Assembly: GCA_964490395.1 (NCBI GenBank)
Contig: CAZBAS010000006.1
Coordinates: forward strand, 8,081-72,080
Direction: 5' to 3'
Origin: an uncultured Candidatus Saccharibacteria bacterium
GTDB lineage: Bacteria > Patescibacteriota > Doudnabacteria > UBA920
DNA length: 64,000 bases
The translations under genes and the position numbers were made by a program. The notes under the pieces are model-generated. The model saw only the letters and a list, made by a program, of their open reading frames with translations. It was not told where the DNA came from and made no database searches. Shown piece by piece: positions 16,795 through 62,292 of the stretch (position 1 is its first letter; the number at the start of each line of letters is the position of its first letter).

Positions 16795-18489
16795 ATGGAC
16801 CAAGAAAACCAAACGCCTCCTTCTGCAGAGCCTGTGCAGGAAATAAAGCCAGTACGCAGCTGGCATGGTGCTGCCCTTTATATACTCATTCCGATAGTGG
16901 TAGTATTGCTCGGCGCTGCTGCATACATGGCCATGCAACTGAAAAATAATTCTACACATGTGCCAAGTGTTGGTACTGTTCAGCCTCCGGCGCCAACCCC
17001 TCCTACCGAAGTGCCGCCTACCCCAGCTCCAGAGCCCGATCACTCTGCTGGTACATGGGTTGGCGTAACGTGGGTTAGCCCATGGAAGCCAGTTGCGAAG
17101 GTGGATTGTGGGCCCGCTGATGCAATTACATGCGAAGCCGAAGCGACAAAACAATATAACGCAGGAACAATTATTGACGGGAAATATAAAGGGCAGACTA
17201 TCTACATACAGGAAGAGAGTATGCTCGGTAGTTCTTACCGATATTTTATAAAGGTGGATAGCAAAAATAAATATTTTGACGAGGCGAATATAAAAATAAC
17301 GGGCATAGACGACCTGCCGGAATATATCCAGCTTCCTGGTAGCGACCAGAAACTAAGACGGTTTACTACCCAGCAGTCGCTCTACAAAGACTTAAAACTG
17401 GCGAAGAAAATATTTACCGACCCGACTGTGGGCGATATCTACTTGTCCGATACTGGGGATTGTTTTATTGCTGCTTTGCCAAATGGTCTGGCAGTGTCGT
17501 ACAGTCTTGTTGTTCCGTTTGTAAACAAAGATACTGGTATCCCTCAAATATCTTTTGACACTGGCAAGGCAAATGCAGATACCTATAATTACATAGTTCC
17601 TTCGTGTGGCTGGCTGTGTGACCGTTTGGCATTGGTAGAAGAAAAAGATCTGAAGCCAGACACAAGGTTGGTTGTGGTGGGGGCAGCAGGCGGCCAAAAG
17701 ATATACGGAATAAAGGACCCGAACGATAAGGTGCTTAAGGATATTTATAACGACAAGAATACGGTGCCGTACTCGAGTAGTACTCAAAATCCTGACGGTA
17801 CCTATCAAAACTCAAAGAGTAAGTATACCTACGAACAATTTATAGCACTGCGCCCGCTTTTGTACTGGCAAGACGCACTTGGTCGCTGGATAGAATTTAG
17901 AAACGCACGCGTGGCAGTTGCCGCGGAAATGTGTAAGCCAGTTATTTATCTATACCCAACCAAAGATACAAACTTAAAAATAGAAGTGGCGCCAAATGGA
18001 GGCCTTACCAAAACTATTCCAGAGTACGGCAATGGCTGGGAAGTAACTGCGCATCCAACTGGTAAAATTACTGACAGAAAAACCGGTGAGGTGTATGACT
18101 ACTTGTTCTGGGAAGGTATAGGCATGCAGTATCCAAGCCCAACAGAAGGTTTTGTTGTGGCAACAAAAGATCTTTCTAAATTCTTTGATACTACATTGCC
18201 AAAGCTTGGTCTGGCAGGCAGAGAAATAACCGACTTTAAAGAATACTGGGTAGCTCGTTTGCAAAATACTGGTAAGGCATATGCGCTCATAAGCTTTATG
18301 AAACCTCTGGACTTTGCAGCGTTAGCGCCTGTTGCCATAACTGGTCAGCAGCCAAATTCAACCATTCGCGTTATGATGACTGCAAAAGCTCTTGATGCAA
18401 AAATTTCTATTCCCGAACAAAAACTTGCTCCAACACCAGTACGTAAAGGGTTTGTGTACGCAGAGTGGGGTGGAGCGCTGCTTCAGTAG
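16795..18489 (+). CDS. hypothetical membrane-anchored extracytoplasmic protein (564 aa)
   Basis: Has an N-terminal TM helix and a Pro/Thr-rich linker (PPAPTPPTEVPPTPAPEP), followed by a large domain with no recognised family. Confidence 0.55.
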   Translation: MDQENQTPPSAEPVQEIKPVRSWHGAALYILIPIVVVLLGAAAYMAMQLKNNSTHVPSVGTVQPPAPTPPTEVPPTPAPEPDHSAGTWVGVTWVSPWKPVAKVDCGPADAITCEAEATKQYNAGTIIDGKYKGQTIYIQEESMLGSSYRYFIKVDSKNKYFDEANIKITGIDDLPEYIQLPGSDQKLRRFTTQQSLYKDLKLAKKIFTDPTVGDIYLSDTGDCFIAALPNGLAVSYSLVVPFVNKDTGIPQISFDTGKANADTYNYIVPSCGWLCDRLALVEEKDLKPDTRLVVVGAAGGQKIYGIKDPNDKVLKDIYNDKNTVPYSSSTQNPDGTYQNSKSKYTYEQFIALRPLLYWQDALGRWIEFRNARVAVAAEMCKPVIYLYPTKDTNLKIEVAPNGGLTKTIPEYGNGWEVTAHPTGKITDRKTGEVYDYLFWEGIGMQYPSPTEGFVVATKDLSKFFDTTLPKLGLAGREITDFKEYWVARLQNTGKAYALISFMKPLDFAALAPVAITGQQPNSTIRVMMTAKALDAKISIPEQKLAPTPVRKGFVYAEWGGALLQ

Positions 18490-18501
18490 AATCATGTAAA
18501 C

Positions 18502-20289
18502 ATGAAAACATTTAAACATATAAACAAAAAATACTTAGTGGTAAGCGCGCTTGTAATTGCAGGCGCGCTTTTGGTGTGGAGTTTTTATTGGGTTGGGGTG
18601 TTTTCCGGTTCCCCTCCTAAGGTAGGAGGGGCTAGGGGTGGTATGAAAGAAAATGCTACCGTAATCCATCCTGCCACGGTCATGCAACCGGATCTGTACC
18701 CAACTTTGAATAAAGTGGATGAGATCCCTGCTGCTACTGAGAAAGTCTACGGCGGTATAGTATCCCACCATTTCTACATGGAAGAGGATATAGGGAAGCT
18801 GTTTTTACAGTTACGCCAGCAGAATCCATCTGTGGTGGTAATAGTGGGTCCGAACCATTTTAATGCAGGCAATGCAGACATACAAACTTCTACTGCTTCG
18901 TATACTACTCCCTTTGGTCAGCTCGATGGCGATCTGCCGCTCGTTAGTCGCTTGGTCGCAGACGGCGCTGCAACTCATGAGGAGCTCGCTTTTGAGCGCG
19001 AACATTCCATAGGGGCACTTGTTGGTTTTACAAAGAAAGTATTTCCAAATGCTAAATTACTTCCCATTATCATGCGTCGCAACGCAAGTCCTGGCCGTAC
19101 GGAACAACTTGCAGCTGAGCTTGAAAAAATACTTCCCCAAGATGCGCTCGTCCTGGCGAGTGTAGATTTTTCGCATCACTTGGATAGGTTTGCAGCTGGC
19201 TTCCACGATAGCCAGTCAGTGGCTGCGTTGCTTTCTGCGGACTTCAACCGCATTCGCAGTCTAGAAGTAGATAGTCCGCAGAGTTTAGAAGTGCTTATGC
19301 GCTACCTGGAGAGCCGGGGAGCACTGCATATGGAATATAAAAATACGAACCAGGCAGTGTATGGCGGTAACTTGATGTCCGATGACGTAACCAGCTATGT
19401 GTTCGCGAAATTTACGTCTTCTTCCAGCCCTCCCCCTCAAGAGGGGTCTCCCTCCTCTTCCTCCCCTAATATAGGGCCCGCTACGCCGGAGCGTAAGCGA
19501 GGCGAGGAGGCTAGGAGGGGTATAATTTCGAACATCGTACCACCCCTAACCCCTCCTATCCTAGGAGGGGGAAAAGACACAGCCACCCTCCTACATCTTG
19601 GGATATTCAATGCAGGCATGCTTGAATCTAACGAAGGCAAGGCCCTCTACGCACTTGGTGGCCCAGAAAATAATTTCCTCCGCGGCGGAGATTTAAAAGT
19701 TATTGGTACGAATAATAAAACAAGTTGTAACTCAGCGCGCATTCCAGCACTTGAGCGCTATAAGATCAATGTATTCAACTCACAGTCATGCGCAAATACC
19801 TTTGTGTTTGGCTCAGAAAATAGAAATTATAATGTAGGTTTTATTTCTATAGCTCAAGGTGAAAACGTAAGCAAAGCAGTAGCTATCCAAAAAAAGAATT
19901 ACGCTTACGTGGCTGTTCAGGTTCCCGCTAGTGCCGAAGCCCAAAGTGCCATCGATTACGGCGCAGATGCAGTCTTTATTCAAGACGGTGCAGCAAAAGT
20001 TGAACTATACAAAAACAAACCCATCATTCATCACCCGGCATCAAATACATCAGGTTTCAGTACTGGCGTAGTATTTAATCCAGCAGGTGCATCAAATATC
20101 GCAGAAGCTTCCTCTGATTCCTCCCCTAAAATAGGGGAGGCTAGGTGGGGTATAAAACTGTACACCTTCCCATACCAACTAAAAAACAATCAACTCACCC
20201 GCCTCGATATTTCTGCAAGACTAAAATCCTGTAAACAAATTTTAACCGGACTAAAAAATGTAGATGGTTGCTCTGCAAGTATCCAGTAA
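18502..20289 (+). CDS. membrane-anchored MEMO1-family (AmmeMemoRadiSam protein B-like) domain fused to a C-terminal domain of uncertain (possibly CapA/metallophosphatase-like) affinity
   Basis: Shows the N-terminal TM helix and the Memo-like motifs VIVGPNHF, TPFG, EHSIGA and SVDFSHH. The C-terminal segment AIDYGADAVFIQDG...LYKNKPIIH is CapA-like. The ORF is interrupted in-frame by three GC-rich palindromic elements. Confidence 0.6.
   Translation: MKTFKHINKKYLVVSALVIAGALLVWSFYWVGVFSGSPPKVGGARGGMKENATVIHPATVMQPDLYPTLNKVDEIPAATEKVYGGIVSHHFYMEEDIGKLFLQLRQQNPSVVVIVGPNHFNAGNADIQTSTASYTTPFGQLDGDLPLVSRLVADGAATHEELAFEREHSIGALVGFTKKVFPNAKLLPIIMRRNASPGRTEQLAAELEKILPQDALVLASVDFSHHLDRFAAGFHDSQSVAALLSADFNRIRSLEVDSPQSLEVLMRYLESRGALHMEYKNTNQAVYGGNLMSDDVTSYVFAKFTSSSSPPPQEGSPSSSSPNIGPATPERKRGEEARRGIISNIVPPLTPPILGGGKDTATLLHLGIFNAGMLESNEGKALYALGGPENNFLRGGDLKVIGTNNKTSCNSARIPALERYKINVFNSQSCANTFVFGSENRNYNVGFISIAQGENVSKAVAIQKKNYAYVAVQVPASAEAQSAIDYGADAVFIQDGAAKVELYKNKPIIHHPASNTSGFSTGVVFNPAGASNIAEASSDSSPKIGEARWGIKLYTFPYQLKNNQLTRLDISARLKSCKQILTGLKNVDGCSASIQ
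18607..18645. repeat. GC-rich palindromic element, short version, in-frame in CDS (encodes SGSPPKVGGARGGM)
   Basis: ggttCCCCTCCtaaggtaGGAGGGGctaggggtggtatg. Confidence 0.7.
19425..19572. repeat. composite GC-rich palindromic element cluster in-frame in CDS (CCCCCTCAAGAGGGG hairpin, then the long-version element, then a CCCCTCCTA-tcc-TAGGAGGGG hairpin)
   Basis: ccctccccctcaagaggggtctccc ... cctcccctaatatagggcccgctacgccggagcgtaagcgaggcgaggaggctaggaggggtat ... cccctcctatcctaggagggg. It encodes SSSPPPQEGSPSSSSPNIGPATPERKRGEEARRGI...PPILGGG. Confidence 0.7.
20119..20155. repeat. GC-rich palindromic element, short version, in-frame in CDS (encodes SDSSPKIGEARWGI)
   Basis: tCCTCCCCTAaaaTAGGGGAGGctaggtggggtataaa. 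Confidence 0.7.
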
Positions 20290-20401
20290 TGTAAACATTG
20301 TTTTATTAATCTATATGGTAGCCCTGGGTAATGGGGGTAGGAAGATAGGATAAATCATGGTTAGGGGGCGCTTTTAGAAACAAAAACTGTCGCCATACAA
20401 T

Positions 20402-20438
20402 CAAAGAGACTCTTTGCGTGGTGCAAAGAGTCTCTTTG
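20402..20438. terminator. perfect hairpin CAAAGAGACTCTTTGC-gtggt-GCAAAGAGTCTCTTTG next to the 3' end of tRNA-Arg(TCT)
   Basis: 16 bp perfect stem. The core CTCTTTGCGT.G..GCAAAGAG is shared with the terminator at 13649. The flanking T-run is weak. Confidence 0.4.
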
Positions 20439-20440
20439 AT

Positions 20441-20515
20441 TGGTGCCCTCGGAGGGAATCGAACCCCCATCAAGACCTTAGAAGAGTCCTGCTTTATCCA
20501 TTAAGCTACAAGGGC
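20441..20515 (-). tRNA. tRNA-Arg (anticodon TCT)
   Basis: The reverse complement is GCCCTTGTAGCTTAATGGATAAAGCAGGACTCTTCTAAGGTCTTGATGGGGGTTCGATTCCCTCCGAGGGCACCA. The cloverleaf folds with the anticodon loop CUUCUAA, and CCA is encoded. Confidence 0.85.
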
Positions 20516-20817
20516 TTACTTCTTCCCCAATTATTAAATTGCGCATAGGTCTTTCGCCGGTGGCAATTGGCGCATCGTATCTCACATTTTATCATTTCCT
20601 GTTCAATCGATTGCCAAGAATAATGACCGGAAAGCATGCGAGCAATATTTTTGAACTTAGCGCTGGGGTTGCTGTGATCAAATTCTAATACAACTGGATC
20701 TTTTTCGCCACAGTCTATGCAAGACTTACATGAGAGATACTCAAACAACTTGGCCCGTATTTTTACACGATGCCTCTTTTGTGCCAAGTATAGGTCCGCT
20801 CTATTTTTGTAAGGCAT
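20506..20817 (-). CDS. HNH endonuclease (small Cys4 zinc-finger HNH protein)
   Basis: Has CKSCIDCGE...EFDHSNP...CANCHRRK, that is CxxC...DH...N..CxxC. This matches the HNH nuclease motif with a zinc ribbon. The ORF sits between tRNA genes, and its 3' end overlaps the first ~10 nt of tRNA-Arg(TCT). Confidence 0.6.
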   Translation of the reverse strand: MPYKNRADLYLAQKRHRVKIRAKLFEYLSCKSCIDCGEKDPVVLEFDHSNPSAKFKNIARMLSGHYSWQSIEQEMIKCEIRCANCHRRKTYAQFNNWGRSKPL

Positions 20818-20904
20818 GTAAGGATTATAACAAATCGTTCTAACCCCTGTCCATCTTCTTTTTACAAAGTAAAACTCCCTATGACAGGGAGCTGACCGAA
20901 GCTA

Positions 20905-21021
20905 CTTACATTTTATACTCATGGTGATCTCGGCAGGAGTTGAACCTGCGACCTTCAGCTCCGCAAGCTGACGCTCTATCCAGCTGAGCTACGAGACCAT
21001 GCCATGAGTATAAAATGTAAT
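20905..21021. repeat. 19 bp perfect inverted repeats (TTACATTTTATACTCATGG / CCATGAGTATAAAATGTAA) bracketing tRNA-Arg(GCG)
   Basis: The left arm abuts the tRNA 3' CCA and the right arm lies 2 nt beyond the tRNA 5' end. In the precursor transcript they would form a 19 bp stem enclosing the tRNA. Confidence 0.6.
20922..20998 (-). tRNA. tRNA-Arg (anticodon GCG as read; D-arm identical to bacterial tRNA-Arg(ACG))
   Basis: The reverse complement is GGTCTCGTAGCTCAGCTGGATAGAGCGTCAGCTTGCGGAGCTGAAGGTCGCAGGTTCAACTCCTGCCGAGATCACCA. The anticodon stem is TCAGC/GCTGA with loop UUGCGGA, and CCA is encoded. Confidence 0.8.
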
Positions 21022-21031
21022 TTTGCAAATA

Positions 21032-21129
21032 GCAGGAGTTGAACCTGCGACCTGTCCGGTGCCGCATCGGACCGCTCTATCCAGCTGCCTCTCCGCCACA
21101 GCGTTAGCGACGACAGAAGCTACGAGACC
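21032..21129 (-). pseudogene. tRNA-Arg-like remnant (degenerate partial duplication of the adjacent tRNA-Arg)
   Basis: It shares the 5' leader and the GGTCTCGTAGCT start plus the T-arm GGTCGCAGGTTCAACTCCTGC with tRNA-Arg(GCG). It carries an insertion of about 30 nt in the D-loop, has a 9 nt anticodon loop, and lacks the 3' acceptor strand and CCA. Confidence 0.4.
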
Positions 21130-21377
21130 ATGCCATAGGTATGGAATATATGCGGGAAAAACACTAAAGCTAAACTAGTCTACCATGTTTACCAGGTTTT
21201 ATCAAGGTCGCGTGTGTGGTATTATAGTAGTACATATATTCTTTATAGACGGTTGTGTCGCCCCGACAGTGTATGGGGTCTAGAGTTGCCGCGTTGTTTG
21301 AACTCTGGTTTCTCGAGCTTTGAGAAAAGATCACATGACTTGCCTTCTACCAAGGCAATTTTTAGTGAGACACACCT

Positions 21378-22430
21378 ATGCAAGAACTATCTCTATACAA
21401 AAAACAATTTGACCGTAAACTGGCGGCCTTTTTTAATGCCCGCTTAAAAACCTATAACAAACTCGGAAAAGGTACCTTGGTGCCAAAGTTTATAGAGCAG
21501 ACTAGTGTCATTGCATTGGCGGGCGGTAAAAGGTTTAGACCATATTTAGCCGCCTTATCTCACGAGACGTTTGGGGGCACATCACCGATAATAGATGACT
21601 TGGGTATGGCCCTCGAGTTGTTCCATTTGTTTGGATTGACTCATGACGATATTGTGGATAAGGGTGCGAAACGACATGGTGTGGAGACAGTCCATATTTA
21701 TACTAAAAACAAATTGCAGGCGCATCGTCGCCTCGGCGAGATTGAACATATTGGAAAAGGACAAGCGATATTCGCGGGTGATTTGCTCTTTATGTGGTCA
21801 CAAGAGTTATTTATTGGATCTGGGAATATGGACACAGGGCGAAAGCTGGCACTGGATGCATTTCGGACTATGATGGACGAGGTATTTGTAGGGGAAATGG
21901 TGGACATAGATTTGACTACTCAGGCCAAGGCGAGTCGTGCAGATATTGAACGAAAAAATATCTTGAAAACTGCTCGATATACTTTTGTGTGTCCAATACG
22001 GGTAGGGGCTAGGTTGGCTACCAAAAATACTTCCGTAGACGTATTTTCAAAAAAATTTGGCGAGGCTTTAGGCTCCGCATATCAGATACAAGACGATGTG
22101 CTGGATATATTGAATGAGTCTAGCGATAAAACTAATTTGGTGGACATTTCAGGCCGCCAGCATACATATCTAACATATTATATGCAGGAAGAAGCAGCAC
22201 CTAAGTACCGCAAGCGCTTTAACCAATTGTTCGGAGCTCCTATTGAAACGCTGGATGCAAAGGTAGTTAAGTCGCTGTATGTTGAGTCAGGGGCTGTGAG
22301 TTATGCAAATCGAATAGCAAGCGTCCAGTTTAAAAAAGCCCACGCCGCATTGAAGGCCTATCCTATTCCCAAAAAATTCATTTCGGCATGGGAAACAGTA
22401 ATTGATATAATAGAAAATCGTAAGTCATAA
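21378..22430 (+). CDS. crtE: polyprenyl diphosphate synthase (probable geranylgeranyl diphosphate synthase)
   Basis: Has the two Asp-rich motifs LTHDDIVD and IQDDVLD of the trans-isoprenyl diphosphate synthases. It lies directly upstream of crtB and crtI. Confidence 0.75.
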   Translation: MQELSLYKKQFDRKLAAFFNARLKTYNKLGKGTLVPKFIEQTSVIALAGGKRFRPYLAALSHETFGGTSPIIDDLGMALELFHLFGLTHDDIVDKGAKRHGVETVHIYTKNKLQAHRRLGEIEHIGKGQAIFAGDLLFMWSQELFIGSGNMDTGRKLALDAFRTMMDEVFVGEMVDIDLTTQAKASRADIERKNILKTARYTFVCPIRVGARLATKNTSVDVFSKKFGEALGSAYQIQDDVLDILNESSDKTNLVDISGRQHTYLTYYMQEEAAPKYRKRFNQLFGAPIETLDAKVVKSLYVESGAVSYANRIASVQFKKAHAALKAYPIPKKFISAWETVIDIIENRKS

Positions 22431-23294: not shown

Positions 23295-23415
23295 AGTACA
23301 ATTTTCAATTTTTAATTTTACAATTTTTAATGAATTAGCAAATATCTAAACATTGAAGTTTTAAAATGGTAAATTGGAGATTTTAAATTGATTGAAAATT
23401 GTAAAATTGAAAATT

Positions 23416-25866: not shown

Positions 25867-25880
25867 GCCTATAGTGTACC

Positions 25881-27210: not shown

Positions 27211-27312
27211 TGACAAAAATGAACAAAAGTAAATAAAAATGACAGAAATATAAAACACAACTCTGAACAATTTTTGTCACTTTTGTCATTTTTTTAAATT
27301 TTGTCACTAAAC
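27211..27312. repeat. about 100 bp intergenic repeat element, copy 1 (termini AATGACAAAAATGA ... TCATTTTTGTCA; three TTTTGTCA direct repeats)
   Basis: The 5' end (22 nt) and the 3' end (37 nt, tttttgtcacttttgtcatttttttaaattttgtca) are near-identical to the copy at 59122..59228. It lies between UDG and dedA. Confidence 0.6.
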
Positions 27313-27314
27313 TT

Positions 27315-27938: not shown

Positions 27939-27961
27939 CGCATTGACCAACCTTTTGTAGT

Positions 27962-29470
27962 ATGGTTCATCCTTCACGCGTAAGAAAATTGAACACAGCT
28001 GAAAGTGGTACGGAAGGTCCGGTTGTATATTGGATGAGCCGAGACCAGCGCGTGGCTCACAATGCAGCGCTGGCTTACGCAGCACAACTCGCCCGCGAAT
28101 ATAATCAGCCACTCATGGTGGTTTTTTGCCTACGCAAAAAATTTGCCCACGGAACAGAGCGCCTTATAGATTTCATGCTCACAGGCCTAGAGGAAGTGGA
28201 AGCAGACCTCGTAAAGAAAGATATCCCATTTTACTTTTTGCTCGGAAGGCCGGAAATAGAAATTCCAAAATTTATACACGAGCATAGTGTTTCTGCTTTG
28301 GTTTCAGATTTTTCTCCGCTGAAGACTAATCGTCAGTGGAAAGAGCATGTATCCGAAAGAATCAAAATTCCATTGTATGAAGTGGACGCCCACAATATAG
28401 TGCCGTGCTGGGCTGCAAGTCCTAAGCAAGAATTTGGCGCATATACCATTCGCCCAAAAATACATAGGCTCCTTTCTGAATATCTGCAAGATTTTCCAAG
28501 ATGGAATTATACCCCACCTAACCTCCCCTATATTAGGGGAGGAAAGAATGCCGATAGTGGATCCATTGATGCAGACGCCTCCTCCGGTACCCCTCCTAAG
28601 ATAGGACCCGCTACGCTGGAGCATAAGCGAGGCGAGGGAGCTAGGGGTGGTATGGATTGGAGCCACATTCGATCCCAAATAGAAGTAGATACTTCTGTGC
28701 CAAAAGTGGACTGGATTGTGCCAGGGGAAAAAGCAGCACATAAAATGGTAAAACATTTTATTGCCCATAAATTAAAAACCTATAACGAAAATAGAAACGA
28801 CCCCACTAAGGATGTTCAGTCCAATCTTTCTCCCTATCTTCATTTCGGCCACATATCGAGCGAGCAAGTAGTCTTAGAGGTTCTCAATGCCACAGGCCTC
28901 AGTCTTGCCGAAGTGCTAGAAAAACATACTGCAAGCACAGAGCCACTTAAGCTATCGGCCACATCGTTTATTGAAGAGCTTGTAGTGCGCAAAGAACTTT
29001 CCGATAATTTTTGTTTCTACAATAAATTTTACGATTCAACAAAGGGGTTTCCTGCGTGGGCGCTAAAAACTCTGAATGAACATCGCGGTGATGTGAGAGA
29101 ATACACATATACGCTCAAGCAGTTAGAAGAGGCGAGCACGCACGATGACCTATGGAATGCTGCGCAATTGGAAATGGTTAAGCGGGGTAAAATGCACGGC
29201 TACATGCGCATGTACTGGGCCAAGAAAATATTTGAATGGAGCAAAACACCAGAGAAGGCCGTAGAGCATGCTATATACTTGAACGACAAATATTTTTTGG
29301 ACGGACGTGATCCAAACGGTTATACAGGCATAGCCTGGTCCGTTGGTGGCGTGCACGACCGCGCGTGGTTTGAGCGGTCTATATTTGGTAAAATTCGCTA
29401 CATGTCTTACGGCGGCGCGAAAAGTAAATTTAAAATTGCTGAATATATACAAAAGATCAATGCACTATAG
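27962..29470 (+). CDS. phr: deoxyribodipyrimidine photolyase, class II CPD photolyase
   Basis: The N-terminus VVYWMSRDQRVAHNAAL and the C-terminus GYTGIAWSVGGVHDRAWFERSIFGKIRYMSYGG are class II photolyase signatures. It contains an in-frame insertion of GC-rich palindromic elements. Confidence 0.85.
   Translation: MVHPSRVRKLNTAESGTEGPVVYWMSRDQRVAHNAALAYAAQLAREYNQPLMVVFCLRKKFAHGTERLIDFMLTGLEEVEADLVKKDIPFYFLLGRPEIEIPKFIHEHSVSALVSDFSPLKTNRQWKEHVSERIKIPLYEVDAHNIVPCWAASPKQEFGAYTIRPKIHRLLSEYLQDFPRWNYTPPNLPYIRGGKNADSGSIDADASSGTPPKIGPATLEHKRGEGARGGMDWSHIRSQIEVDTSVPKVDWIVPGEKAAHKMVKHFIAHKLKTYNENRNDPTKDVQSNLSPYLHFGHISSEQVVLEVLNATGLSLAEVLEKHTASTEPLKLSATSFIEELVVRKELSDNFCFYNKFYDSTKGFPAWALKTLNEHRGDVREYTYTLKQLEEASTHDDLWNAAQLEMVKRGKMHGYMRMYWAKKIFEWSKTPEKAVEHAIYLNDKYFLDGRDPNGYTGIAWSVGGVHDRAWFERSIFGKIRYMSYGGAKSKFKIAEYIQKINAL
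28521..28655. repeat. GC-rich palindromic elements in-frame in the photolyase gene (CCTCCCCTA-tat-TAGGGGAGG hairpin plus the long-version element)
   Basis: acCTCCCCTAtatTAGGGGAGGaaag ... ccCCTCCtaagataGGAcccgctacgctggagcataagcgaggcgagggagctaggggtggtatg. It encodes ...SGTPPKIGPATLEHKRGEGARGGM. Confidence 0.7.
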
Positions 29471-30836: not shown

Positions 30837-31823
30837 TTATTTTTTATCGTGGAATTTTTTGTGCACTTCACGGAGCTGCTCGTTGGTAACGTGAGTGTAT
30901 ATTTGCGTGGTGGTGATGCTCGCATGACCAAGCATAGTCTGTACACTGCGAATGTCTGCGCCGTTGCGCAGTAGATCTGTGGCGAACGAGTGCCGAAACA
31001 CGTGCGGGGTTACTTTAGTGGTGACCCCGGCAAGCATAGCGTACTTATGAACCATACGTTGTACAGACCGCGCCGAAAGGCCGGCAGCTTCGTGCTGGCT
31101 TGCAGTTTGTATTTTTCCTTGAGCATCCATTTGCGCCGTTACGCTTTGGCCAATACTGGTGTGTGCGATAAACAATGCTGGGTGGTTGTCGGTTCGTTTG
31201 TCTAGATACGCCTTCAGCGCTTTAACTGCATCGGGAGATAAAAACACCAGGCGAAGTTTGTCGCCCTTACCGCGAACGGTAAATTCACCTCGGTCCAGGT
31301 TTATCATGCGCTCGGTAAGTTGTACTAGTTCGGAAACACGAACGCCCGAAGCAAATAGGGTATGAAGAATGGCAGTGTCGCGCAGCCGAATAAGCTCGTC
31401 GCTTTCTTGCTCTACGGCTTTTAAAATTCGCGAGAGTGCATCGTCGTCTAGTGCGTGGACTTCGCGACTCGGGTTTTTAGCAAGCTCTATTTTTTCTGGA
31501 GACAGAGTGTCTATGTCGTGCTTCATTAAGTATTTTAAGAATGCCCGGAGCGCAATAACATGGTAGCTCTGTGTTATTTGTTTTAAGTGTCTACCCTTGT
31601 CATCTACAAACCGATTTAAGTATAGGCGGTATTTTCTAACCACGTCGAGAGTTATGTCGCTTGGTTTGCCAAGGCCTTCACTGCGCGCGAACCCAGCAAA
31701 ACGACCCAAGTAGTGGTCGTAGTTTTTAATAGTTTTAAGACTCTTGTTTTTTTCTATTTCGCAGTACTCCAGGAAGTCCTGGATATGGTTTTGGAGCGGG
31801 CTGCGTTTGGGTAGTTCTGACAT
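30837..31823 (-). CDS. site-specific tyrosine recombinase, XerC/XerD family
   Basis: The C-terminal catalytic region contains HVFRHSFATDLLRNGADIRSVQTMLGHASITTTQIYTHV, with the R...HxxR...Y residues. The N-terminus is a SAM-like domain. Confidence 0.85.
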   Translation of the reverse strand: MSELPKRSPLQNHIQDFLEYCEIEKNKSLKTIKNYDHYLGRFAGFARSEGLGKPSDITLDVVRKYRLYLNRFVDDKGRHLKQITQSYHVIALRAFLKYLMKHDIDTLSPEKIELAKNPSREVHALDDDALSRILKAVEQESDELIRLRDTAILHTLFASGVRVSELVQLTERMINLDRGEFTVRGKGDKLRLVFLSPDAVKALKAYLDKRTDNHPALFIAHTSIGQSVTAQMDAQGKIQTASQHEAAGLSARSVQRMVHKYAMLAGVTTKVTPHVFRHSFATDLLRNGADIRSVQTMLGHASITTTQIYTHVTNEQLREVHKKFHDKK

Positions 31824-36831: not shown

Positions 36832-36923
36832 TCCCCCTCCTAAGATAGGAGGGGCTAGGGGTGGTATGAGTCATTCGTAATAAATTTCGTACCCCATCTG
36901 ACTTCCCCTATCTTAGGGGAAGG
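36832..36923. repeat. intergenic copies of the GC-rich palindromic element (a complete short version plus an inverted partial copy)
   Basis: tCCCCCTCCtaagataGGAGGGGctaggggtggtatg (near-identical to the in-gene copy at 18607) and cTTCCCCTAtctTAGGGGAAgg. Neither lies in a coding region. Confidence 0.7.
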
Positions 36924-45571: not shown

Positions 45572-46267
45572 ATGTTAGGCGAGCGTGGTGCGCATGAAAA
45601 TTTGAACTCGACCATCACTGGCGAGGGTACCGACCATAAGCGCGCTATGGCCTATACGAATGCGTTCAAAACTTTCGTACATGAACATCCGCATGTTTTA
45701 CGGCAAGTTGAAACGCAGATAGATGAGTTATATGCTCAAAACCCAAAACCTGGGGATGAATTATCAACTCCTGAATGCAAGGTTGTATTTTTAGATAGAG
45801 AACCTTTGCATGATTCCGATTATTTCTCGGTTCACGTGGCAGGTAGGGATTTCTTTGTGAAAGCTCCTGGGGTAAATGAAGATACTACGCCTGCGTATGC
45901 TGAGGTGGTCGCTGGTCATGCTCTACAGAAGAAGCTGGAAGGCCTGCATATTCCAAAACTGAAGGTTGTGAAATACCACTTTGGCTACACAGATTCAAAA
46001 GGCAGAAATATATTAGTAGCAGATTTAGCAGCAAAGCATTGGAGAATAGCGCAGGAGTACATGAACGAAATATCGAAAACAGATCTAGCTAAAGCCGACA
46101 GCCTCCAGCGTCGCACCGATTACGTAATGCAGGTGTTGGACCTTACGGAAGGAGAGGGGGAATTTCTAGATATCCAGCCGTATAATATGTTCTACGATCC
46201 AGATACAGACGAATTAATTCTATTTGATATAAGCTATCCAGATTCACTAGGCGATTATGCTCATTGA
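45572..46267 (+). CDS. hypothetical protein
   Basis: 231 aa ORF. No family recognised. Confidence 0.45.
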   Translation: MLGERGAHENLNSTITGEGTDHKRAMAYTNAFKTFVHEHPHVLRQVETQIDELYAQNPKPGDELSTPECKVVFLDREPLHDSDYFSVHVAGRDFFVKAPGVNEDTTPAYAEVVAGHALQKKLEGLHIPKLKVVKYHFGYTDSKGRNILVADLAAKHWRIAQEYMNEISKTDLAKADSLQRRTDYVMQVLDLTEGEGEFLDIQPYNMFYDPDTDELILFDISYPDSLGDYAH

Positions 46268-47282
46268 TACTCACGCACATATAAACTTACACGCATTTAA
46301 AGATGATGCAGATGAAGTGTTGCAGCGGTGTTTTGCCGCGGGTGTGACTGTTATAAATGTGGGCACAGAATACAATACGAGCAAACAGGCGGTGGATATG
46401 CTCAAGGAATATCCGCTGCGTGTATATGCAGCCATAGGTCTCCACCCTAGTCATACGTACGATAATCCGTATTTAGATGAGAATGAAAGCGCGTCGCGAA
46501 GTGGGCAGGAACAGTTCAATTACGACGCTTATAAAAAACTGGGAGCGCATGAAAAGGTTATTGGAATAGGTGAGTGTGGGTTGGATTATTATAGATTGCC
46601 AGATGATGCGTCTACTCATGAATCTATTAAGGCGTTGCAAAAAGAAGCTTTTCTGAAGCAGATTAAGCTAGCGCTGGAACTAGACAAGACTCTTATTATC
46701 CATTGTCGCCCAAGCAAAGGTACCAACGACGCTTATGAGGATGTCCTTGCTATAATTTCCAATTTCCCCGTTCGGCAGGCTCAGGGCCCTGAACTTCTTG
46801 AAGGGCAATTTCCAGTTTCCAATGAAGGAAGTTTTCTTTCCGGCACCCCTCCTCTGGAGGAGGGGCAGGGGGAGGTCATAGTGAAGAATGACGATGCATC
46901 AAAAGTTTCTATGACCCCCACTAACTCCCCCTCAAGAGGGGGAGGACAAGAACTTCGTTTCGAAGTTCATTCGTTTACGGGACCACTCGAAATAGCACAG
47001 AAGTTTCTTGCTCTCGGCGCTTACATTGGTTTAAACGGGATAATCACTTTCGATAAAACCGGGAACATGGAGCAAGTAGTAAAAGGTGTGCCGCTGGAAC
47101 GAATAGTGCTTGAGACAGATTCGCCGTACCTAGCGCCTATCCCATATCGTGGTAAGCGCAACGAGCCTGCATATATAGAGCAAGTGGCAAAGAAAATTGC
47201 TGAGTGGAAAAGCGTGGCTTGTGAAGACGTGGCCGCTACTACAACAGAAAACGCAAAACAATTATTTAAACTACCTTTATGA
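46257..47282 (+). CDS. tatD: TatD-family metal-dependent deoxyribonuclease/hydrolase with an in-frame insertion of about 45 aa
   Basis: Has LIDTHAHI, GECGLDY and the HCR motif of the TatD family. It is 341 aa against about 255 aa typical. The excess corresponds to a GC-rich palindromic element cluster. Confidence 0.85.
   Translation: MLIDTHAHINLHAFKDDADEVLQRCFAAGVTVINVGTEYNTSKQAVDMLKEYPLRVYAAIGLHPSHTYDNPYLDENESASRSGQEQFNYDAYKKLGAHEKVIGIGECGLDYYRLPDDASTHESIKALQKEAFLKQIKLALELDKTLIIHCRPSKGTNDAYEDVLAIISNFPVRQAQGPELLEGQFPVSNEGSFLSGTPPLEEGQGEVIVKNDDASKVSMTPTNSPSRGGGQELRFEVHSFTGPLEIAQKFLALGAYIGLNGIITFDKTGNMEQVVKGVPLERIVLETDSPYLAPIPYRGKRNEPAYIEQVAKKIAEWKSVACEDVAATTTENAKQLFKLPL
46840..46950. repeat. 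composite GC-rich palindromic insertion in tatD (CCCCTCCTC-tg-GAGGAGGGG; GGTCATAG...CTATGACC; CTCCCCCTC-aa-GAGGGGGAG)
   Basis: Three perfect hairpins lie within 110 nt. They encode GTPPLEEGQGEVIVKNDDASKVSMTPTNSPSRGGGQE. Confidence 0.7.
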
Positions 47283-59228: not shown

Positions 59229-60050
59229 ATGAAATACGTTAAAGCACTGATAGTTTTTATTGGCATTGTATGGCTGGCTACTGCGCCTATTGCTATGCAT
59301 GCACGACCTGGTAGTATTTTGCATAGGGTAAATAGTATTGTAAACGAGCCTGTATGGGCCTGGATTCACATTACCCAAGATGGCCGGGCCGATACCGTGG
59401 AAAAACAGCTCGAGCAGCGGTATACAGACATAGAACATGCCTGGAATAGCAAAGAGGCGTGGCAAGAGCCGTGGGCGTATAAAGCTGAAGATGCCACTGC
59501 GGGAAGAGTAATTGCGCAAATACATAGCGCCATAGCGGCTCAGGACTTTAAGGTAGCGGACACGCTGACTGCACATGCCCTTGCCCTGTCCCGCGGACAT
59601 AAACAAGTTATGCTTGGCTTAATTACTAAGCCTGGCATAGGGAAAACTGCGGCAGATGTTACCTTTATGGATACGCGCATAAACGCACTTACCGAGCTCC
59701 GCCAGAGTATTGCCCAGAAATTTGCTACGGCATACAGTAGAACGGAACTGGTAAAAGGTATAGATGATAAACTTATACAACTAGATACCTACGTCGCCAC
59801 TGCAGATACTGACTTCCAAGTTGCGGACGCGGTAGTAGGGGATACAGAACGGCTGGCCATACAGAACACTCTCAAATACGCTAAAACATTGCAGGCCGCG
59901 GCAAAAGACAAGCTCGCCAATGACCAGTATGTAGATGCCTACCGCTATGCAAACGATGCAGAGGGCTATGCGAAAGAGGTTTCTATAGTAGTAACAGCCG
60001 CACAAGAGTTTTCCATCCACACTCCCACCAGTTTCCTTCCTGTGCAATAG
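59229..60050 (+). CDS. hypothetical secreted protein
   Basis: Has an N-terminal signal/TM segment (ALIVFIGIVWLATAPIAMHA). No family recognised. Confidence 0.5.
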   Translation: MKYVKALIVFIGIVWLATAPIAMHARPGSILHRVNSIVNEPVWAWIHITQDGRADTVEKQLEQRYTDIEHAWNSKEAWQEPWAYKAEDATAGRVIAQIHSAIAAQDFKVADTLTAHALALSRGHKQVMLGLITKPGIGKTAADVTFMDTRINALTELRQSIAQKFATAYSRTELVKGIDDKLIQLDTYVATADTDFQVADAVVGDTERLAIQNTLKYAKTLQAAAKDKLANDQYVDAYRYANDAEGYAKEVSIVVTAAQEFSIHTPTSFLPVQ

Positions 60051-61147
60051 TGGTAGCGACAGGAGCCAAACGCATGCAGATACAACCAGAAGACTACAAT
60101 TTTGAGTTTCCCGACTCTCTTATTGCCCAAAGCCCTGCGCATCCTCGTGATAGTGCGCGGCTTTTGGTTTACGACAGAAAAACCAGCACAGTTGCATTGG
60201 ATATATTTAAAAATCTGGTACAGTACCTACCTCCCCGCGCAGTTATTGTATTTAATGAAACCAAAGTTATTCCGGCGCGTTTCTATGCGTATAAGCCCAC
60301 TGGCGGTAAGGTGGAGTTGCTATATACAGGTAAATCGGAAAAAACTTTTGACGCCCTTGCAAATAGATCGCTAGTAGTCGGTGATGTACTTTGTTTTCGA
60401 TCCGGTTCCTCCCCTAAGATAGGGGAGGCTAGGAGGGGCATGAACCAAGAGCACGATATTACCGTTACGAAAAAACTATCCAAAGGATACCGTTTTACAT
60501 CGTCATTCCCCATTTCTCAGTTATTCTCTATTCTCGACAGGCACGGTGTTACACCTATACCGCCGTACATAAAAAATAATACATTTGCGGAAAAGAAACT
60601 TCGCACAGAGTATCAGACTGTGTTTGCGAAGTCGCAAGGCTCAAGCGCAGCACCAACTGCGAGTCTACACTTTACGAAAAACCTTCTGGCGAAATTTGAG
60701 AAAGCGGGAATAGCTACCGAGTATGTAACATTGCATGTGGGGCTCGGCACCTTCGCACCGCTCACGGAGAAACATCTGAAAACCAAAAAACTTCATAGCG
60801 AGTACTATGAAATTACGCCATCTGTTGCAAAGCGGCTGGAGCGCTATAAAAAACAGGGCAGGCCAATAGTTGCTGTGGGGACGACCGTGGTCCGTACACT
60901 CGAGTCCGCTGCTTCGCGTGCGGGAAAGCTTGGTAAGCTTTCCGGAAAAACTGAAATATTTATTTACCCGCCGTATAATTTTAAATTTGTAGACAGCCTC
61001 ATTACCAACTTTCATGTACCCAAGTCCAGCCTTATGATGCTGGTAGCAAGTTTAATTGGTCGTGAAAAGCTGCTTGAGTTGTACGTCTTGGCGGTAAAAA
61101 AGAAGTTTAGGCTGTTTTCGTTTGGTGATGGCATGCTCATAAGATAG
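60050..61147 (+). CDS. queA: S-adenosylmethionine:tRNA ribosyltransferase-isomerase
   Basis: Has QSPAHPRDSARLLVYDRKT at the N-terminus and conserved QueA motifs throughout. One GC-rich palindromic element is inserted in-frame. Confidence 0.85.
   Translation: MVATGAKRMQIQPEDYNFEFPDSLIAQSPAHPRDSARLLVYDRKTSTVALDIFKNLVQYLPPRAVIVFNETKVIPARFYAYKPTGGKVELLYTGKSEKTFDALANRSLVVGDVLCFRSGSSPKIGEARRGMNQEHDITVTKKLSKGYRFTSSFPISQLFSILDRHGVTPIPPYIKNNTFAEKKLRTEYQTVFAKSQGSSAAPTASLHFTKNLLAKFEKAGIATEYVTLHVGLGTFAPLTEKHLKTKKLHSEYYEITPSVAKRLERYKKQGRPIVAVGTTVVRTLESAASRAGKLGKLSGKTEIFIYPPYNFKFVDSLITNFHVPKSSLMMLVASLIGREKLLELYVLAVKKKFRLFSFGDGMLIR
60407..60443. repeat. GC-rich palindromic element, short version, in-frame in queA (encodes SSPKIGEARRGM)
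   Basis: tCCTCCCCTAagaTAGGGGAGGctaggaggggcatg. Confidence 0.7.
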
Positions 61148-61230: not shown

Positions 61231-62292
61231 ATGCTTACACAATCCAAAGTTACAACTTTAACCAAAACTTTTTGGATATCTGGAACAGTAATTATTTTAA
61301 TTGCTATTGGGTTGGTAGCATGGCGTGTGTGGCCTACGAAAAAATCTGATTTTGCTAATGGCGCACAGGTTGCTGAACAAACAAAGCCAAAACTTGAGGC
61401 GACTATTAGCGGGCAGTTAGTAGCGCCGGAAATAGCTGCGCGAAGACCCATGGCAGTTATGGTAGAAAACCACCCGGATGCCAGGCCACAAAGCGGCCTT
61501 TCGCAAGCAGAGGTAGTGTATGAAATGATGGCTGAGGGTGGTATAACCCGGTATGTTGCAGTCTTCCAGAAAGATACAGGCGCCATAGGTCCGGTTCGTT
61601 CTGCGCGTGACTATTTTGCGGAACTTGCAGATTCATGGGGTGCGATATATGCCCATGTAGGCGGAAGCCCAGAAGCATTGGAACAAATAAAGAATGGCGT
61701 GTATAAAAACCTTACCGACATAAACGAATTTTACCAAGGTAACTATTTTACGCGCATCAAAACAAGAGTCGCCCCGCACAATACCTATATCTCCACAAAC
61801 AAACTACTCGAATACGAAGCAGTAATAGATAAGGCTCCAACAACTCCACCGCAGCCGTTCACTTTTGCAGACACGCCAGGAGTAGCACCTGAAGTCGCAC
61901 GTAGTATAGCCATAGATTTTTCCTTGCCTAGCTACAAAGTCCTATTTACCTACGACCCCGCAACGCAAAAGTATTTACGCTCTGTTGCCGGCAAAGCCGA
62001 CACCGATGCAGTAACCAAAACCCAACTTTCTCCAAAAACTGTAATAGTACAGGAAACAGATATAAATCCTATACCAGGCGATGATAAATTCCGCGTAAAC
62101 CTCCGCACCACTGGTACCGGCAAGGCCTACGTCTTCCAAAATGGCTACGTTGCCACTGCCACCTGGAAACGCGAACCCGGCAAACCAATCCAATACCTCG
62201 ACGCCCAAAATAACCCCATCTCATTCACCCCCGGTCAATTCTGGATCGCACTTGTTTCTAAAAATAATCCCTCAGCCGTAACTTGGCACTAA
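61231..62292 (+). CDS. DUF3048-like secreted protein (YerB-like)
   Basis: Has an N-terminal TM/signal and the segment MAVMVENHPDARPQSGLSQAEVVYEMMAEGGITRYVAVF, which resembles DUF3048. Confidence 0.5.
   Translation: MLTQSKVTTLTKTFWISGTVIILIAIGLVAWRVWPTKKSDFANGAQVAEQTKPKLEATISGQLVAPEIAARRPMAVMVENHPDARPQSGLSQAEVVYEMMAEGGITRYVAVFQKDTGAIGPVRSARDYFAELADSWGAIYAHVGGSPEALEQIKNGVYKNLTDINEFYQGNYFTRIKTRVAPHNTYISTNKLLEYEAVIDKAPTTPPQPFTFADTPGVAPEVARSIAIDFSLPSYKVLFTYDPATQKYLRSVAGKADTDAVTKTQLSPKTVIVQETDINPIPGDDKFRVNLRTTGTGKAYVFQNGYVATATWKREPGKPIQYLDAQNNPISFTPGQFWIALVSKNNPSAVTWH

What the first reader, a model, noticed from the sequence alone, without database searches (positions are those of the whole stretch)
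18607..20155. One gene carrying the palindromic element at three separate in-frame sites
The MEMO1-like/CapA-like fusion gene (18502..20289) contains a short-version element near its N-terminus. It has a composite cluster of about 150 nt in the middle, made of a CCCCCTCAAGAGGGG hairpin, then a long-version element, then a CCCCTCCTA-tcc-TAGGAGGGG hairpin. A third short-version copy lies near the C-terminus. The ORF still remains intact over 595 aa. The middle cluster sits exactly at the junction between the Memo-like domain and the C-terminal domain, so it may act as an inter-domain linker. A single gene hit three times suggests either a hotspot or relaxed constraint.
Basis: seen in the sequence. 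Interest (0 to 1): 0.6.

Follow-up and report, generated by a model that had tools for sequence, protein, structure and literature searches.

The report
Triplex-type DNA repeats inside a gene
A small GC-rich repeat, built as a hairpin plus a mirror-image G-rich tail like the known "intrastrand triplex" (BoxC/PIT) repeats, sits in frame at three floppy loops of an intact enzyme gene in a candidate-phyla-radiation (CPR) bacterium, so a repeat reported as strictly intergenic in E. coli can be translated as harmless protein filler here.

Summary
ORF 18502..20289 (595 aa, Memo plus a degenerate CapA-like domain) is intact and carries the repeat at three sites.

The anatomy needs correcting:
- The middle cluster holds a degenerate hairpin, a long copy, and a complete short copy in inverted orientation.
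- The element is more than a palindrome. It has a pyrimidine arm, a loop, a purine arm, a YTA linker, and a G-rich tail that mirrors the purine arm (arm A matches tail A or T).
- This is the layout of class II purine-motif intrastrand triplex repeats (BoxC / PIT / TM; Holder 2015).

Supporting numbers:
- The window holds 11 copies, against 0 in shuffles. Nine lie inside ORFs (Memo-CapA, photolyase, TatD, QueA).
- The mirror rule holds at 238 of 246 variable positions in 123 copies from other genomes.
- Only 3 of 6 reading frames are stop-free, and those are the frames used.
- AlphaFold2 gives pLDDT below 50 at the three sites and nowhere else except residues 1-6.
- An orthologue lacks the middle insert, so the insert is not needed for the fusion.
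- An independent strain (99.3% identity) has all three sites, with pN/pS about 0.2.

Verdict: a selfish or structure-constrained repeat tolerated in permissive loops, resembling Rickettsia palindromic elements. It is a new variant of a known kind, of moderate interest. The way it spreads is unknown.

The parts
18502..20289 (+). Host gene: N-terminal TM helix, Memo domain, and a degenerate CapA/PGA_cap-like (metallophosphatase-fold) domain; 595 aa, intact
   Evidence: pN/pS 0.2 against strain L115
18605..18648 (+). Site 1: short triplex-motif copy. CCCCTCC-TAAGGTA-GGAGGGG-CTA-GGGGTGG, with 5' flank TCCGGT and 3' flank TATGA. Read as SPPKVGGARGGM (aa 37-48)
   Evidence: pLDDT below 50 at aa 34-51
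19429..19446 (-). Site 2a: degenerate hairpin CCTCCCCCTCAAGAGGGG, a remnant of the TatD-type subfamily. A decayed version sits at the same place in orthologue L003
19460..19525 (+). Site 2b: long copy. CCTCCCC-TAATA-TAGGG[30-nt insert]GAGG-CTA-GGAGGGG. Read as SSPNIGPATPERKRGEEARRGI
19477..19506 (+). 30-nt nested hairpin insert CCCGCTACGCCGGAGCGTAAGCGAGGCGAG, which splits the purine arm of the long copy
   Evidence: the same 30-mer occurs in photolyase (28607-28636) and in groundwater contig L121
19535..19572 (-). Site 2c: complete short copy in inverted orientation (core 19540-19570). Read as VPPLTPPILGGG
   Evidence: (I1)
20114..20157 (+). Site 3: short copy. CCTCCCC-TAAAATA-GGGGAGG-CTA-GGTGGGG. 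Read as SSPKIGEARWGI (aa 540-552)
   Evidence: pLDDT below 50 at aa 531-547
28509..28655 (.). Same family in the class II photolyase gene (27962..29470): an inverted short copy (core 28512-28542, -) and a long copy (28590-28655, +), in the linker between the two photolyase domains
36834..36922 (.). Intergenic pair: 36834-36864 (+) and 36892-36922 (-). The second has the co-varying variant CTTCCCC/GGGGAAG/GATGGGG
46846..46944 (.). Composite inverted pair in the TatD gene (46257..47282): 46846-46875 (+) and 46915-46944 (-), around the spacer AGTGAAG..GATGCATCAAAAGTTTCT. The same composite lies in the Memo gene of L003 and the QueA gene of L118
60402..60452 (+). Single copy in QueA (60050..61147), core 60408-60438. 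Read as SSPKIGEARRGM, in a variable loop

Best explanation
The three sites are copies of a short GC-rich interspersed repeat.

What the element is. Each unit of about 35-50 nt has five parts:
- a pyrimidine arm (CCCCTCC or CCTCCCC, extended by TA);
- a 3-nt loop;
- the complementary purine arm;
- a 3-nt linker (YTA);
- a G-rich tail that is the mirror image of the purine arm, with A or T opposite each A.

This is the layout of class II purine-motif intrastrand triplex repeats, known in E. coli as BoxC / PIT / TM-ECO. On single-stranded DNA the unit can fold into a 9-bp hairpin. The tail can then lie back on the purine arm as G*G-C and A/T*A-T triplets.

How it came to sit in the gene. The family has multiplied in this CPR (Patescibacteria) lineage. 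Only about 12% of the window is non-coding, so most surviving copies lie inside genes. A copy survives in a gene only under three conditions:
- the inserted length keeps the reading frame;
- it is read in one of the three stop-free frames (one forward, two reverse);
- it falls in a surface loop or inter-domain linker.
It is then translated as a disordered Ser/Pro/Gly/Arg-rich peptide.

Why this gene was hit three times. The Memo/CapA-like gene offers three such permissive places: after the membrane anchor, in the existing inter-domain linker, and in a C-terminal loop. New copies also tend to accumulate beside old ones.

Shown here: the architecture, its covariation, the copy census, frame use, loop location, dispensability of the insert, and integrity of the gene.

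Inferred: that a triplex forms in vivo, that the inserts are translated, and how the element copies itself. For the last, the likeliest route is a structure-promoted template switch or gene conversion seeded by existing copies, or an unidentified enzyme acting in trans.
For: Architecture:
- There are 9 perfect three-block motifs in the window against 0 in 100 dinucleotide shuffles. Two long forms bring the total to 11.
- In 123 copies from 110 loci of other genomes, the tail obeys the mirror rule at 238 of 246 variable positions. A direct-repeat register fits only 30 of 246. In 106 of 123 copies the complementary pyrimidine arm is perfect.
- Further co-varying triples occur: CTTCCCC/GGGGAAG/GATGGGG, CTCCCCC/GGGGGAG/GTGGGGG and CTCCTCC/GGAGGAG/GAGGAGG.
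- DNA folding gives a 9-bp hairpin and leaves the tail unpaired. The long form folds as a three-way junction that restores the split arm.

Literature:
- Holder et al. 2015 (PMC4666352) describe the same Py-loop-Pu-N3-Pu pattern as abundant, conserved bacterial repeats. They showed by CD and NMR that it forms a triplex in vitro. They note inverted pairs and found no associated transposase.

Genic copies and frames:
- 9 of 11 window copies lie in ORFs.
- Only 3 of 6 frames are stop-free, and all three are used.

Permissive sites:
- The AlphaFold2 model has mean pLDDT 80. Apart from residues 1-6, its only segments below 50 are aa 34-51, 309-357 and 531-547, which are the three sites.
- The photolyase insert is in the inter-domain linker. 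The QueA insert is in a variable loop.

Dispensable and changing over time:
- P0003 lacks the middle insert. P0002 has a different composite at the same site. More distant homologues lack all three.
- In QueA homologues P0123 and P0124, a composite has landed directly next to the older copy.

Constraint at the DNA level:
- The orthologous QueA copy is kept in lineages with 81-86% protein identity. Its 4 substitutions all fall in loops or the linker and none in the three stems, while the flanking codons diverge by about 30%.

Gene is functional and not an artefact:
- Independent sample L115 is 99.3% identical, has no indels, carries all three sites, and gives pN/pS 0.2.
Against: - Triplex formation was not tested and cannot be computed with the tools used. 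The stems are only 7-8 nt, and Holder et al. themselves treat 7-nt stems as close to chance when they are not repeated.
- G-runs could instead form a two-tier G-quadruplex.
- The covariation counts are not corrected for phylogeny. Many copies come from a few genomes, and the search pattern fixed much of the purine arm and tail.
- No clean empty site or target-site duplication was found, so mobility is inferred from distribution rather than shown.
- In other genomes the family avoids ORFs: 18 of 110 copies lie in long frames against 69% of random positions. The high genic share in this window rests on 11 copies.
- There is no direct evidence that the inserts are translated rather than removed.
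Confidence: 0.72

Rival explanations
1. A classical transposase-driven element, either a REP/REPIN mobilised by a RAYT or a MITE with terminal inverted repeats. On this view the hairpin-plus-tail is simply the enzyme's recognition site, and the mirror symmetry is a by-product.
For: - Inverted pairs around a conserved spacer behave as one unit found in three different genes of three genomes: TatD in the window, Memo in L003 and QueA in L118.
- Copies have conserved 5' (TCYGGT) and 3' (TATGA) flanks.
- Copy number differs sharply between relatives: 11 per 64 kb here against 0 intact in 34 kb of ERZ650264 and 20 kb of L003.
Against: - No Y1/RAYT or other transposase was found among the window ORFs scanned. 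The only recombinase is a syntenic tyrosine recombinase.
- There is no GTAG/CGTC tag and no recognisable target-site duplication.
- Mirror symmetry is not what sequence-specific dsDNA- or hairpin-binding transposases are known to require (my own knowledge).
- Holder et al. also found no mobility genes near TM-ECO.
Confidence: 0.15
2. The constrained structure is a G-quadruplex, or just the hairpin, rather than a triplex. The tail would supply G-tracts.
For: The purine arm plus tail always contain at least four GG tracts. The hairpin alone is stable, at about -9 kcal/mol with z-scores of -1.8 to -3.7 across the four short copies.
Against: - A quadruplex does not predict that the non-G position of the tail tracks the mirrored A of the purine arm and is restricted to A or T (238 of 246).
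- It also does not predict a pyrimidine arm that co-varies with both.
- The related TM-ECO was shown to be a triplex in vitro.
Confidence: 0.12
3. The inserts are selected at the protein level, as flexible linkers or as a recurring peptide module (SSPKIGEARxGM) with a function of its own.
For: The middle cluster lengthens a real inter-domain linker. The same forward frame recurs in many genes and genomes.
Against: - The same DNA occurs in intergenic regions and in both orientations, giving three unrelated peptides.
- Conservation follows nucleic-acid pairing rules, not codons.
- Orthologues function without the inserts.
- Recurrence of one forward frame is forced, because the other two forward frames contain stops.
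Confidence: 0.06
4. The gene is a decaying pseudogene, or the repeats are an assembly artefact.
For: The C-terminal domain has lost segments of the CapA fold. GC-rich repeats can mislead assemblers.
Against: - The ORF is intact.
- The architecture is identical in an independently assembled sample.
- pN/pS is 0.2.
- The AlphaFold2 model is confident outside the inserts.
- The domain losses are shared by a whole clade, P0001-P0007.
Confidence: 0.02

Closest known systems
BoxC / PIT elements / TM-ECO intrastrand triplex repeats (Hoyne et al. 2000, cited from Holder et al.; Holder et al. 2015, PMC4666352)
   Same: - Same block order: C-rich arm, short loop, G-rich arm, 3-nt loop, second G-rich block mirroring the first.
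- Same triplet rules (G*G-C, A*A-T, T*A-T).
- High sequence conservation and many dispersed copies, sometimes as inverted pairs.
- No transposase nearby, and an association with locally variable sequence.
   Different: - Stems are 7-8 nt here against 9 nt in TM-ECO. The sequence differs, and the TM-ECO consensus has no match in the window.
- The hosts are CPR bacteria.
- TM-ECO is reported as always intergenic in E. coli, whereas 9 of 11 copies here are translated in frame inside housekeeping genes.
- A long form with a nested 30-nt hairpin, and composite pairs with a conserved spacer, are not described for TM-ECO.
Rickettsia palindromic elements (RPE; 'selfish DNA in protein-coding genes', Ogata et al. 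2000, cited from my own knowledge; the search listed Rickettsia genome papers that contain the terms 'Rickettsia palindromic element' and 'selfish DNA', but I did not open them)
   Same: A small palindromic repeat inserted in frame into many unrelated, still functional genes of a reduced genome. It is tolerated at surface-exposed, non-conserved positions and also occurs between genes.
   Different: RPEs are longer (about 100-150 bp), AT-richer, have no mirror-repeat tail, and are confined to Rickettsia. The family here is GC-rich, 35-66 nt, and found across many CPR lineages and some other phyla.
REP / BIME / REPIN elements mobilised by RAYT transposases
   Same: Imperfect palindromes of 20-40 nt, often paired in inverted orientation, with many copies per genome.
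   Different: There is no GTAG/CGTC tag, and no RAYT gene was seen in the window. REPs are extragenic, and the mirror-repeat third block is absent from REPs.

Membership tests
Intrastrand triplex motif, class II purine type (ITxF definition, Holder 2015) | Three consecutive blocks on one strand (Py stem, loop, Pu stem, loop, Pu/T third strand), with stems of 6-15 nt and loops of 1-6 nt | tested here: met
   Nine perfect 7-nt three-block motifs. With the flanking T-A pair the stems are 8 nt, loop 1 is 5 nt and loop 2 is 3 nt.
Intrastrand triplex motif, class II purine type (ITxF definition, Holder 2015) | The third block is antiparallel to (a mirror of) the purine stem, with G*G, A*A or T*A triplets | tested here: met
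   238 of 246 variable positions obey the rule, against 30 of 246 in direct register. All nine short window copies have 0 mismatches.
Intrastrand triplex motif, class II purine type (ITxF definition, Holder 2015) | The triplex physically forms (CD, NMR or DMS footprint) | not testable with these tools
   Shown only for TM-ECO by Holder et al.. ViennaRNA models Watson-Crick pairs only.
TM-ECO / BoxC sequence family | Consensus CCCTCNCCC N3-6 GGGNGAGGG N3 GGGNGAGGG | tested here: not met
   0 matches in the window. The arms here are CCCCTCC or CCTCCCC.
TM-ECO / BoxC sequence family | Strictly intergenic location | tested here: not met
   9 of 11 window copies lie inside ORFs.
REP/REPIN-RAYT system | A GTAG or CGTC tag next to the palindrome, and a RAYT (Y1 transposase) gene in the genome | tested here: inconclusive
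   No conserved tag. No Y1_Tnp hit among the 36 window ORFs scanned. The rest of the genome was not available.
MITE | Terminal inverted repeats with target-site duplications, and a parent IS element | tested here: inconclusive
   The composite pairs have inverted ends and a conserved spacer. No duplication or parent IS was identified.
Rickettsia palindromic element-like in-frame selfish repeat (behaviour, not homology) | The repeat is inserted in frame in several unrelated intact genes, at non-conserved surface positions | tested here: met
   Memo-CapA, photolyase, TatD and QueA are all intact. The inserts fall in low-pLDDT or variable loops.
Memo + CapA (PGA_cap) fusion protein family of CPR bacteria | An N-terminal Memo domain and a C-terminal PGA_cap/metallophosphatase-fold domain in one chain | tested here: met
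   PF01875 hit. Homologues carry PF01875 plus PF09587 and align full-length. Foldseek finds MEMO1 and weak metallophosphatase-fold hits. PF09587 itself is not detected in this clade, and an aligned stretch of about 40 columns containing the 'NNH' motif is missing.

The most novel reading that the evidence does not exclude
The three-way covariation (pyrimidine arm, purine arm, mirrored tail) across many lineages could be natural evolutionary evidence that a purine-motif DNA triplex is selected in living cells. On this reading the repeat family spreads between phyla and actively colonises protein-coding genes of CPR bacteria. There it seeds further insertions next to itself and creates new disordered protein segments. 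That would make it a structure-driven, transposase-independent way of remodelling genes.
Probability: 0.25. Interest if true: 0.7.

Novelty: new variant of a known kind. Interest (0 to 1): 0.5.

Why it matters
- Intrastrand-triplex repeats (BoxC/PIT/TM) have been known for decades, but their function and their means of spread are not. In E. coli they are described as strictly intergenic.
- Here the same architecture is translated in frame inside core enzymes of a reduced CPR genome, and several co-varying arm/tail variants exist.
- This gives two things to work with. One is a natural mutational series for testing whether the triplex matters in vivo. The other is a second example, independent of Rickettsia, of selfish repeats living inside proteins.
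- There is also a practical point. These inserts lengthen CPR proteins and add low-complexity loops, which can confuse annotation, alignment and structure prediction.

Tried and rejected
- Rfam, at gathering threshold over the whole window and at E≤1 over 18400-20400: only tRNAs and chance-level hits, so no known RNA family.
- Watson-Crick pairing of the tail with the pyrimidine arm (an alternative hairpin): rejected. The register is mirrored rather than complementary, leaving a C-T or C-A mismatch (checked by eye on the sequence).
- Direct-repeat reading of the tail: rejected, 30 of 246 against 238 of 246.
- Exact TM-ECO consensus: no match.
- Transposase or RAYT in the window: none among 36 ORFs scanned. 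A tyrosine recombinase at 30837..31823 is syntenic in L003 and is probably XerC/D-like.
- Clean empty sites and target duplications, using orthologues of Memo, photolyase and QueA: the relatives are too divergent (no more than 86% protein identity) and the loops too variable to define exact boundaries.
- Literature searches for in-frame palindromic or triplex repeats in CPR/Patescibacteria: nothing relevant in the library held.
- Metagenome scan for the 30-nt insert of the long form: only one other exact occurrence.
Full report
**Observation.** The region 18300-20500 contains one long ORF, 18502..20289 (+), of 595 aa. Pfam finds a Memo domain at aa 92-255 (E 5e-22), and NCBIfam finds AmmeMemoRadiSam system protein B. 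GC-rich repeat copies lie at 18611-18645, within 19429-19572, and at 20120-20155. The shared 15-nt motif GGCTAGGNGGGGTAT occurs 7 times in the window against 0.23 expected.

Three details of it need correcting:
- The third "hairpin" of the middle cluster is a complete short copy in inverted orientation. It is 89% complementary to copy 1 over 36 nt (I1).
- The first hairpin is a degenerate remnant related to the inverted copy in TatD.
- The long version is a short version with a 30-nt insert (19477-19506) inside its purine arm. When folded as DNA, the insert forms its own hairpin and the split arm is restored as a three-way junction.

**Anatomy of the element.** Aligned copies show these parts in order:
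- a pyrimidine-rich 5' flank (TCYGGT);
- a pyrimidine arm, CCCCTCC or CCTCCCC, followed by TA;
- a 3-nt loop;
- TA and the complementary purine arm;
- a YTA linker;
- a G-rich tail, GGGGTGG or GG(T/A)GGGG;
- TAT.

The tail is neither a second complement of the pyrimidine arm nor a direct repeat of the purine arm. It is the mirror image of the purine arm, with A or T opposite each A.

I wrote a scanner for this layout: Py arm, loop of 3-9 nt, perfect Watson-Crick Pu arm, linker of 2-4 nt, and a third block obeying G*G, A*A and T*A. It finds 9 perfect motifs in the window and none in 100 dinucleotide-preserving shuffles. A relaxed scan adds the two long forms, giving 11 copies.

**Wider distribution.** Most are labelled as CPR lineages: Saccharibacteria, Doudnabacteria, Peribacteria, Gracilibacteria, Magasanikbacteria, Berkelbacteria, SR1 and Wirthbacteria. 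Some are labelled Bacteroidota, Proteobacteria, Cyanobacteria or Melainabacteria. I did not check those labels.

Among the 123 copies in these loci:
- 106 have a perfect complementary pyrimidine arm, which the search pattern did not require.
- The mirror rule is met at 238 of 246 variable positions, against 30 of 246 for a direct register.
- Arm types CCCCTCC, CCTCCCC, CCTCTCC and CCCCCCC each come with their own matching purine arm and tail.
- Further matched triples occur in the window and in relatives: CTTCCCC/GGGGAAG/GATGGGG, CTCCCCC/GGGGGAG/GTGGGGG and CTCCTCC/GGAGGAG/GAGGAGG.

**What it corresponds to.** A literature search found Holder et al. 2015 (PMC4666352). They describe abundant, highly conserved "intrastrand triplex motifs" in bacteria. 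The main example is TM-ECO (CCCTCNCCC N3-6 GGGNGAGGG N3 GGGNGAGGG), previously called BoxC and PIT elements. According to that paper:
- TM-ECO forms a purine-motif triplex in vitro.
- It is "always located intergenically" in E. coli K-12.
- It sometimes occurs as tandem inverted repeats.
- It has no nearby transposase or integrase.
- It marks unusually variable loci.
- Purine-motif triplexes do not form in RNA.

The element here matches that architecture, with the same block order, the same 3-nt second loop and the same triplet rules. It is not the TM-ECO sequence family: the window has 0 matches to the consensus, and the stems are 7-8 nt rather than 9.

**Copies inside genes.** Nine of the 11 window copies lie inside long ORFs:
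- five pieces in Memo-CapA;
- two in a class II photolyase (27962..29470);
- two in TatD (46257..47282);
- one in QueA (60050..61147).

The coding fraction of the window is about 88%, so in this genome the copies are not depleted from genes. In the other genomes sampled they are: 18 of 110 copies lie in long stop-free frames, against 69% of random positions. Clear in-frame cases do exist there too, for example SSPKIGEARWGM and SSPNIGEARRGI in ORFs of 337 to about 2000 codons.

The element has stops in two of its three forward frames and one of its three reverse frames. The three open frames give S-S-P-K-I-G-E-A-R-x-G-M, Y-T-P-P-x-L-P-Y-x-R-G-G and I-P-P-L-x-P-P-x-L-G-G. All three are used in the window. 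"In frame" is thus what selection would leave behind, not a special property of the insertion.

**Where the inserts sit in the proteins.** An AlphaFold2 model built on 14 homologues has mean pLDDT 80 and pTM 0.76. Apart from residues 1-6, its only segments below 50 are aa 34-51, 309-357 and 531-547. The element pieces occupy aa 37-48, 310-357 and 540-552.

Foldseek places the N-terminal half on MEMO1 (TMt 0.71) and gives weak matches to metallophosphatase folds (Vps29, purple acid phosphatase, 5'-nucleotidase). This is consistent with a CapA/PGA_cap-type C-terminal domain. Homologues P0008-P0120 carry PF01875 plus PF09587, so the fusion is widespread in CPR bacteria and predates the inserts.

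In the alignment, P0003 (62% identity) joins the two domains with about 10 residues and has no insert. P0002 (63%) has an insert of similar length but different sequence at the same point. More distant homologues lack all three inserts. The middle cluster therefore expands an existing linker and is dispensable. The photolyase inserts lie in the linker between the α/β and FAD domains. The QueA insert lies in a variable loop.

**Turnover and clustering.** Codon-level alignment with the syntenic loci L001 and L003 shows decayed or different element variants at all three Memo sites. Examples in L003:
- TAAGGAGGGGCTGGGAGAGG at the N-terminal site;
- a perfect TCTCCCCA/TGGGGAGA hairpin at the C-terminal site.

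The middle insert of L003 is a composite: two inverted units with their tails facing inward, around the spacer AGTGAAG...GATGCATCAAAAGTTTCT. The same composite, spacer included, sits in TatD of the window (46846-46944) and in QueA of L118, where it landed directly beside the older single copy. Composite pairs thus behave as units that reach different genes in different genomes, and new copies gather next to old ones.

Uniform random placement of 7-8 site-clusters puts three or more in any one gene with probability 0.01-0.02. This is modest support for a hotspot or for permissiveness.

The relatives L001/L119 (34 kb) and L003 (20 kb) hold no intact copy, against 11 in 64 kb here. This pattern of expansion in one lineage and decay in others is typical of a selfish repeat.

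**Constraint on the DNA.** The QueA copy is retained at the orthologous position in P0122 and P0123 (86% and 81% protein identity). Its four substitutions all fall in the loop, the linker or the 3' flank, and none falls in the three stems, while neighbouring codons differ at roughly 30% of positions. In P0124 and P0125 the copy is decaying, and in P0126 it is absent. This fits either selection on the nucleic-acid structure or homogenisation by gene conversion among copies. I cannot tell which.

**Integrity of the gene.** Contig L115 comes from an independent sequencing run. It matches the window over 6321 nt at 99.3% identity with no indels and carries all three sites. Within the elements it differs only by CTA→TTA in the linker of copy 1. 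Between the two strains the gene has 14 synonymous and 9 non-synonymous codon differences, giving pN/pS about 0.2. The gene is under purifying selection and is not an artefact.

**Mechanism.** Shown or strongly supported:
- The element belongs architecturally to the intrastrand-triplex repeat class.
- It is an interspersed family with subfamilies and composites.
- Its genic copies are confined to open frames and to disordered loops.
- The inserts are dispensable for the fusion.

Inferred:
- On transiently single-stranded DNA the G-rich strand folds into a hairpin plus purine-motif triplex.
- This structure, or a protein that recognises it, drives copying by template switching or gene conversion, preferentially beside existing copies.
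- The inserts are translated into disordered filler.

No transposase was found in the 36 ORFs scanned, and Rfam has no matching family.

**Comparison and novelty.** In architecture the element matches BoxC/PIT/TM repeats. In behaviour it resembles Rickettsia palindromic elements, which are in-frame selfish repeats in intact genes. That comparison rests on my own knowledge of Ogata et al. 2000; the search listed Rickettsia genome papers that contain the terms, but I did not open them. I found no report of triplex-type repeats translated inside CPR genes in the library searched. That library is incomplete, so this is absence of evidence only. I rate the finding a new variant of a known kind, with interest about 0.5.

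Noticed in passing
window 19477-19506 and 28607-28636; L121 1100-1129: The 30-nt sequence CCCGCTACGCCGGAGCGTAAGCGAGGCGAG (two changes in the photolyase copy) is nested inside the purine arm of both long copies. In a groundwater metagenome contig the identical 30-mer sits at a different position, between the linker and the tail of another triplex-like element. It looks like a small insertion module of its own that targets these repeats. Only one other exact match exists in 241 million metagenome records.
   Followed up: partly
window 46846-46944; L003 about 9790-9900; L118 356-455: A composite of two inverted triplex units around a conserved spacer of about 31 nt (AGTGAAG..GATGNATCAAAAG..) is found in three different genes (TatD, Memo, QueA) of three genomes. 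It behaves as a MITE-like unit, and its arms differ by matched triple changes.
   Followed up: partly
window 17118-19245 versus 19246-23326 (compared with L115): All 44 differences between the window and the 99.3%-identical strain L115 lie in 17118-19245. The next 4 kb has none. This points to a recombination or sweep boundary about 180 nt upstream of the middle repeat cluster.
   Followed up: no
window 20506-20817 (-): A 103-aa ORF lies between two tRNA-Arg genes (20441-20515 and 20922-20998). By eye it has an HNH-like CxxC...DH...CxxCH pattern. It has no Pfam hit and is conserved in L115.
   Followed up: no
window 19600-20289 (C-terminal domain of the target protein): In this clade (the query and P0001-P0007), the CapA-like domain lacks an aligned stretch of about 40 columns that contains the 'NNH' metallophosphatase motif in full-length homologues, and it no longer hits PF09587. 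The domain is probably catalytically inactive.
   Followed up: partly
window 21378-29470: A carotenoid-type gene set (polyprenyl synthase, SQS_PSY, an amine-oxidase/phytoene-desaturase-like gene, UbiA) sits next to uracil-DNA glycosylase and a class II photolyase. The set is syntenic in relatives L002 and L003. A light-related gene set is unusual for a reduced CPR genome.
   Followed up: no
window 61185-61225: A divergent GC-rich hairpin, CCCCTCCCCAGGCGGGGGGAGAGGCCAGGAGAGAGG, lies just upstream of the DUF3048 gene (61231..62292). It may be another subfamily of the repeat. A related variant sits at the same place in L117 (2785-2818).
   Followed up: no
window 16795-18489 (+): A 564-aa protein with no Pfam hit and a Pro/Thr-rich N-terminal region lies immediately upstream of the Memo-CapA gene. 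It is conserved in that position in all syntenic loci (L001, L002, L003, L115), which suggests a functional pair.
   Followed up: no
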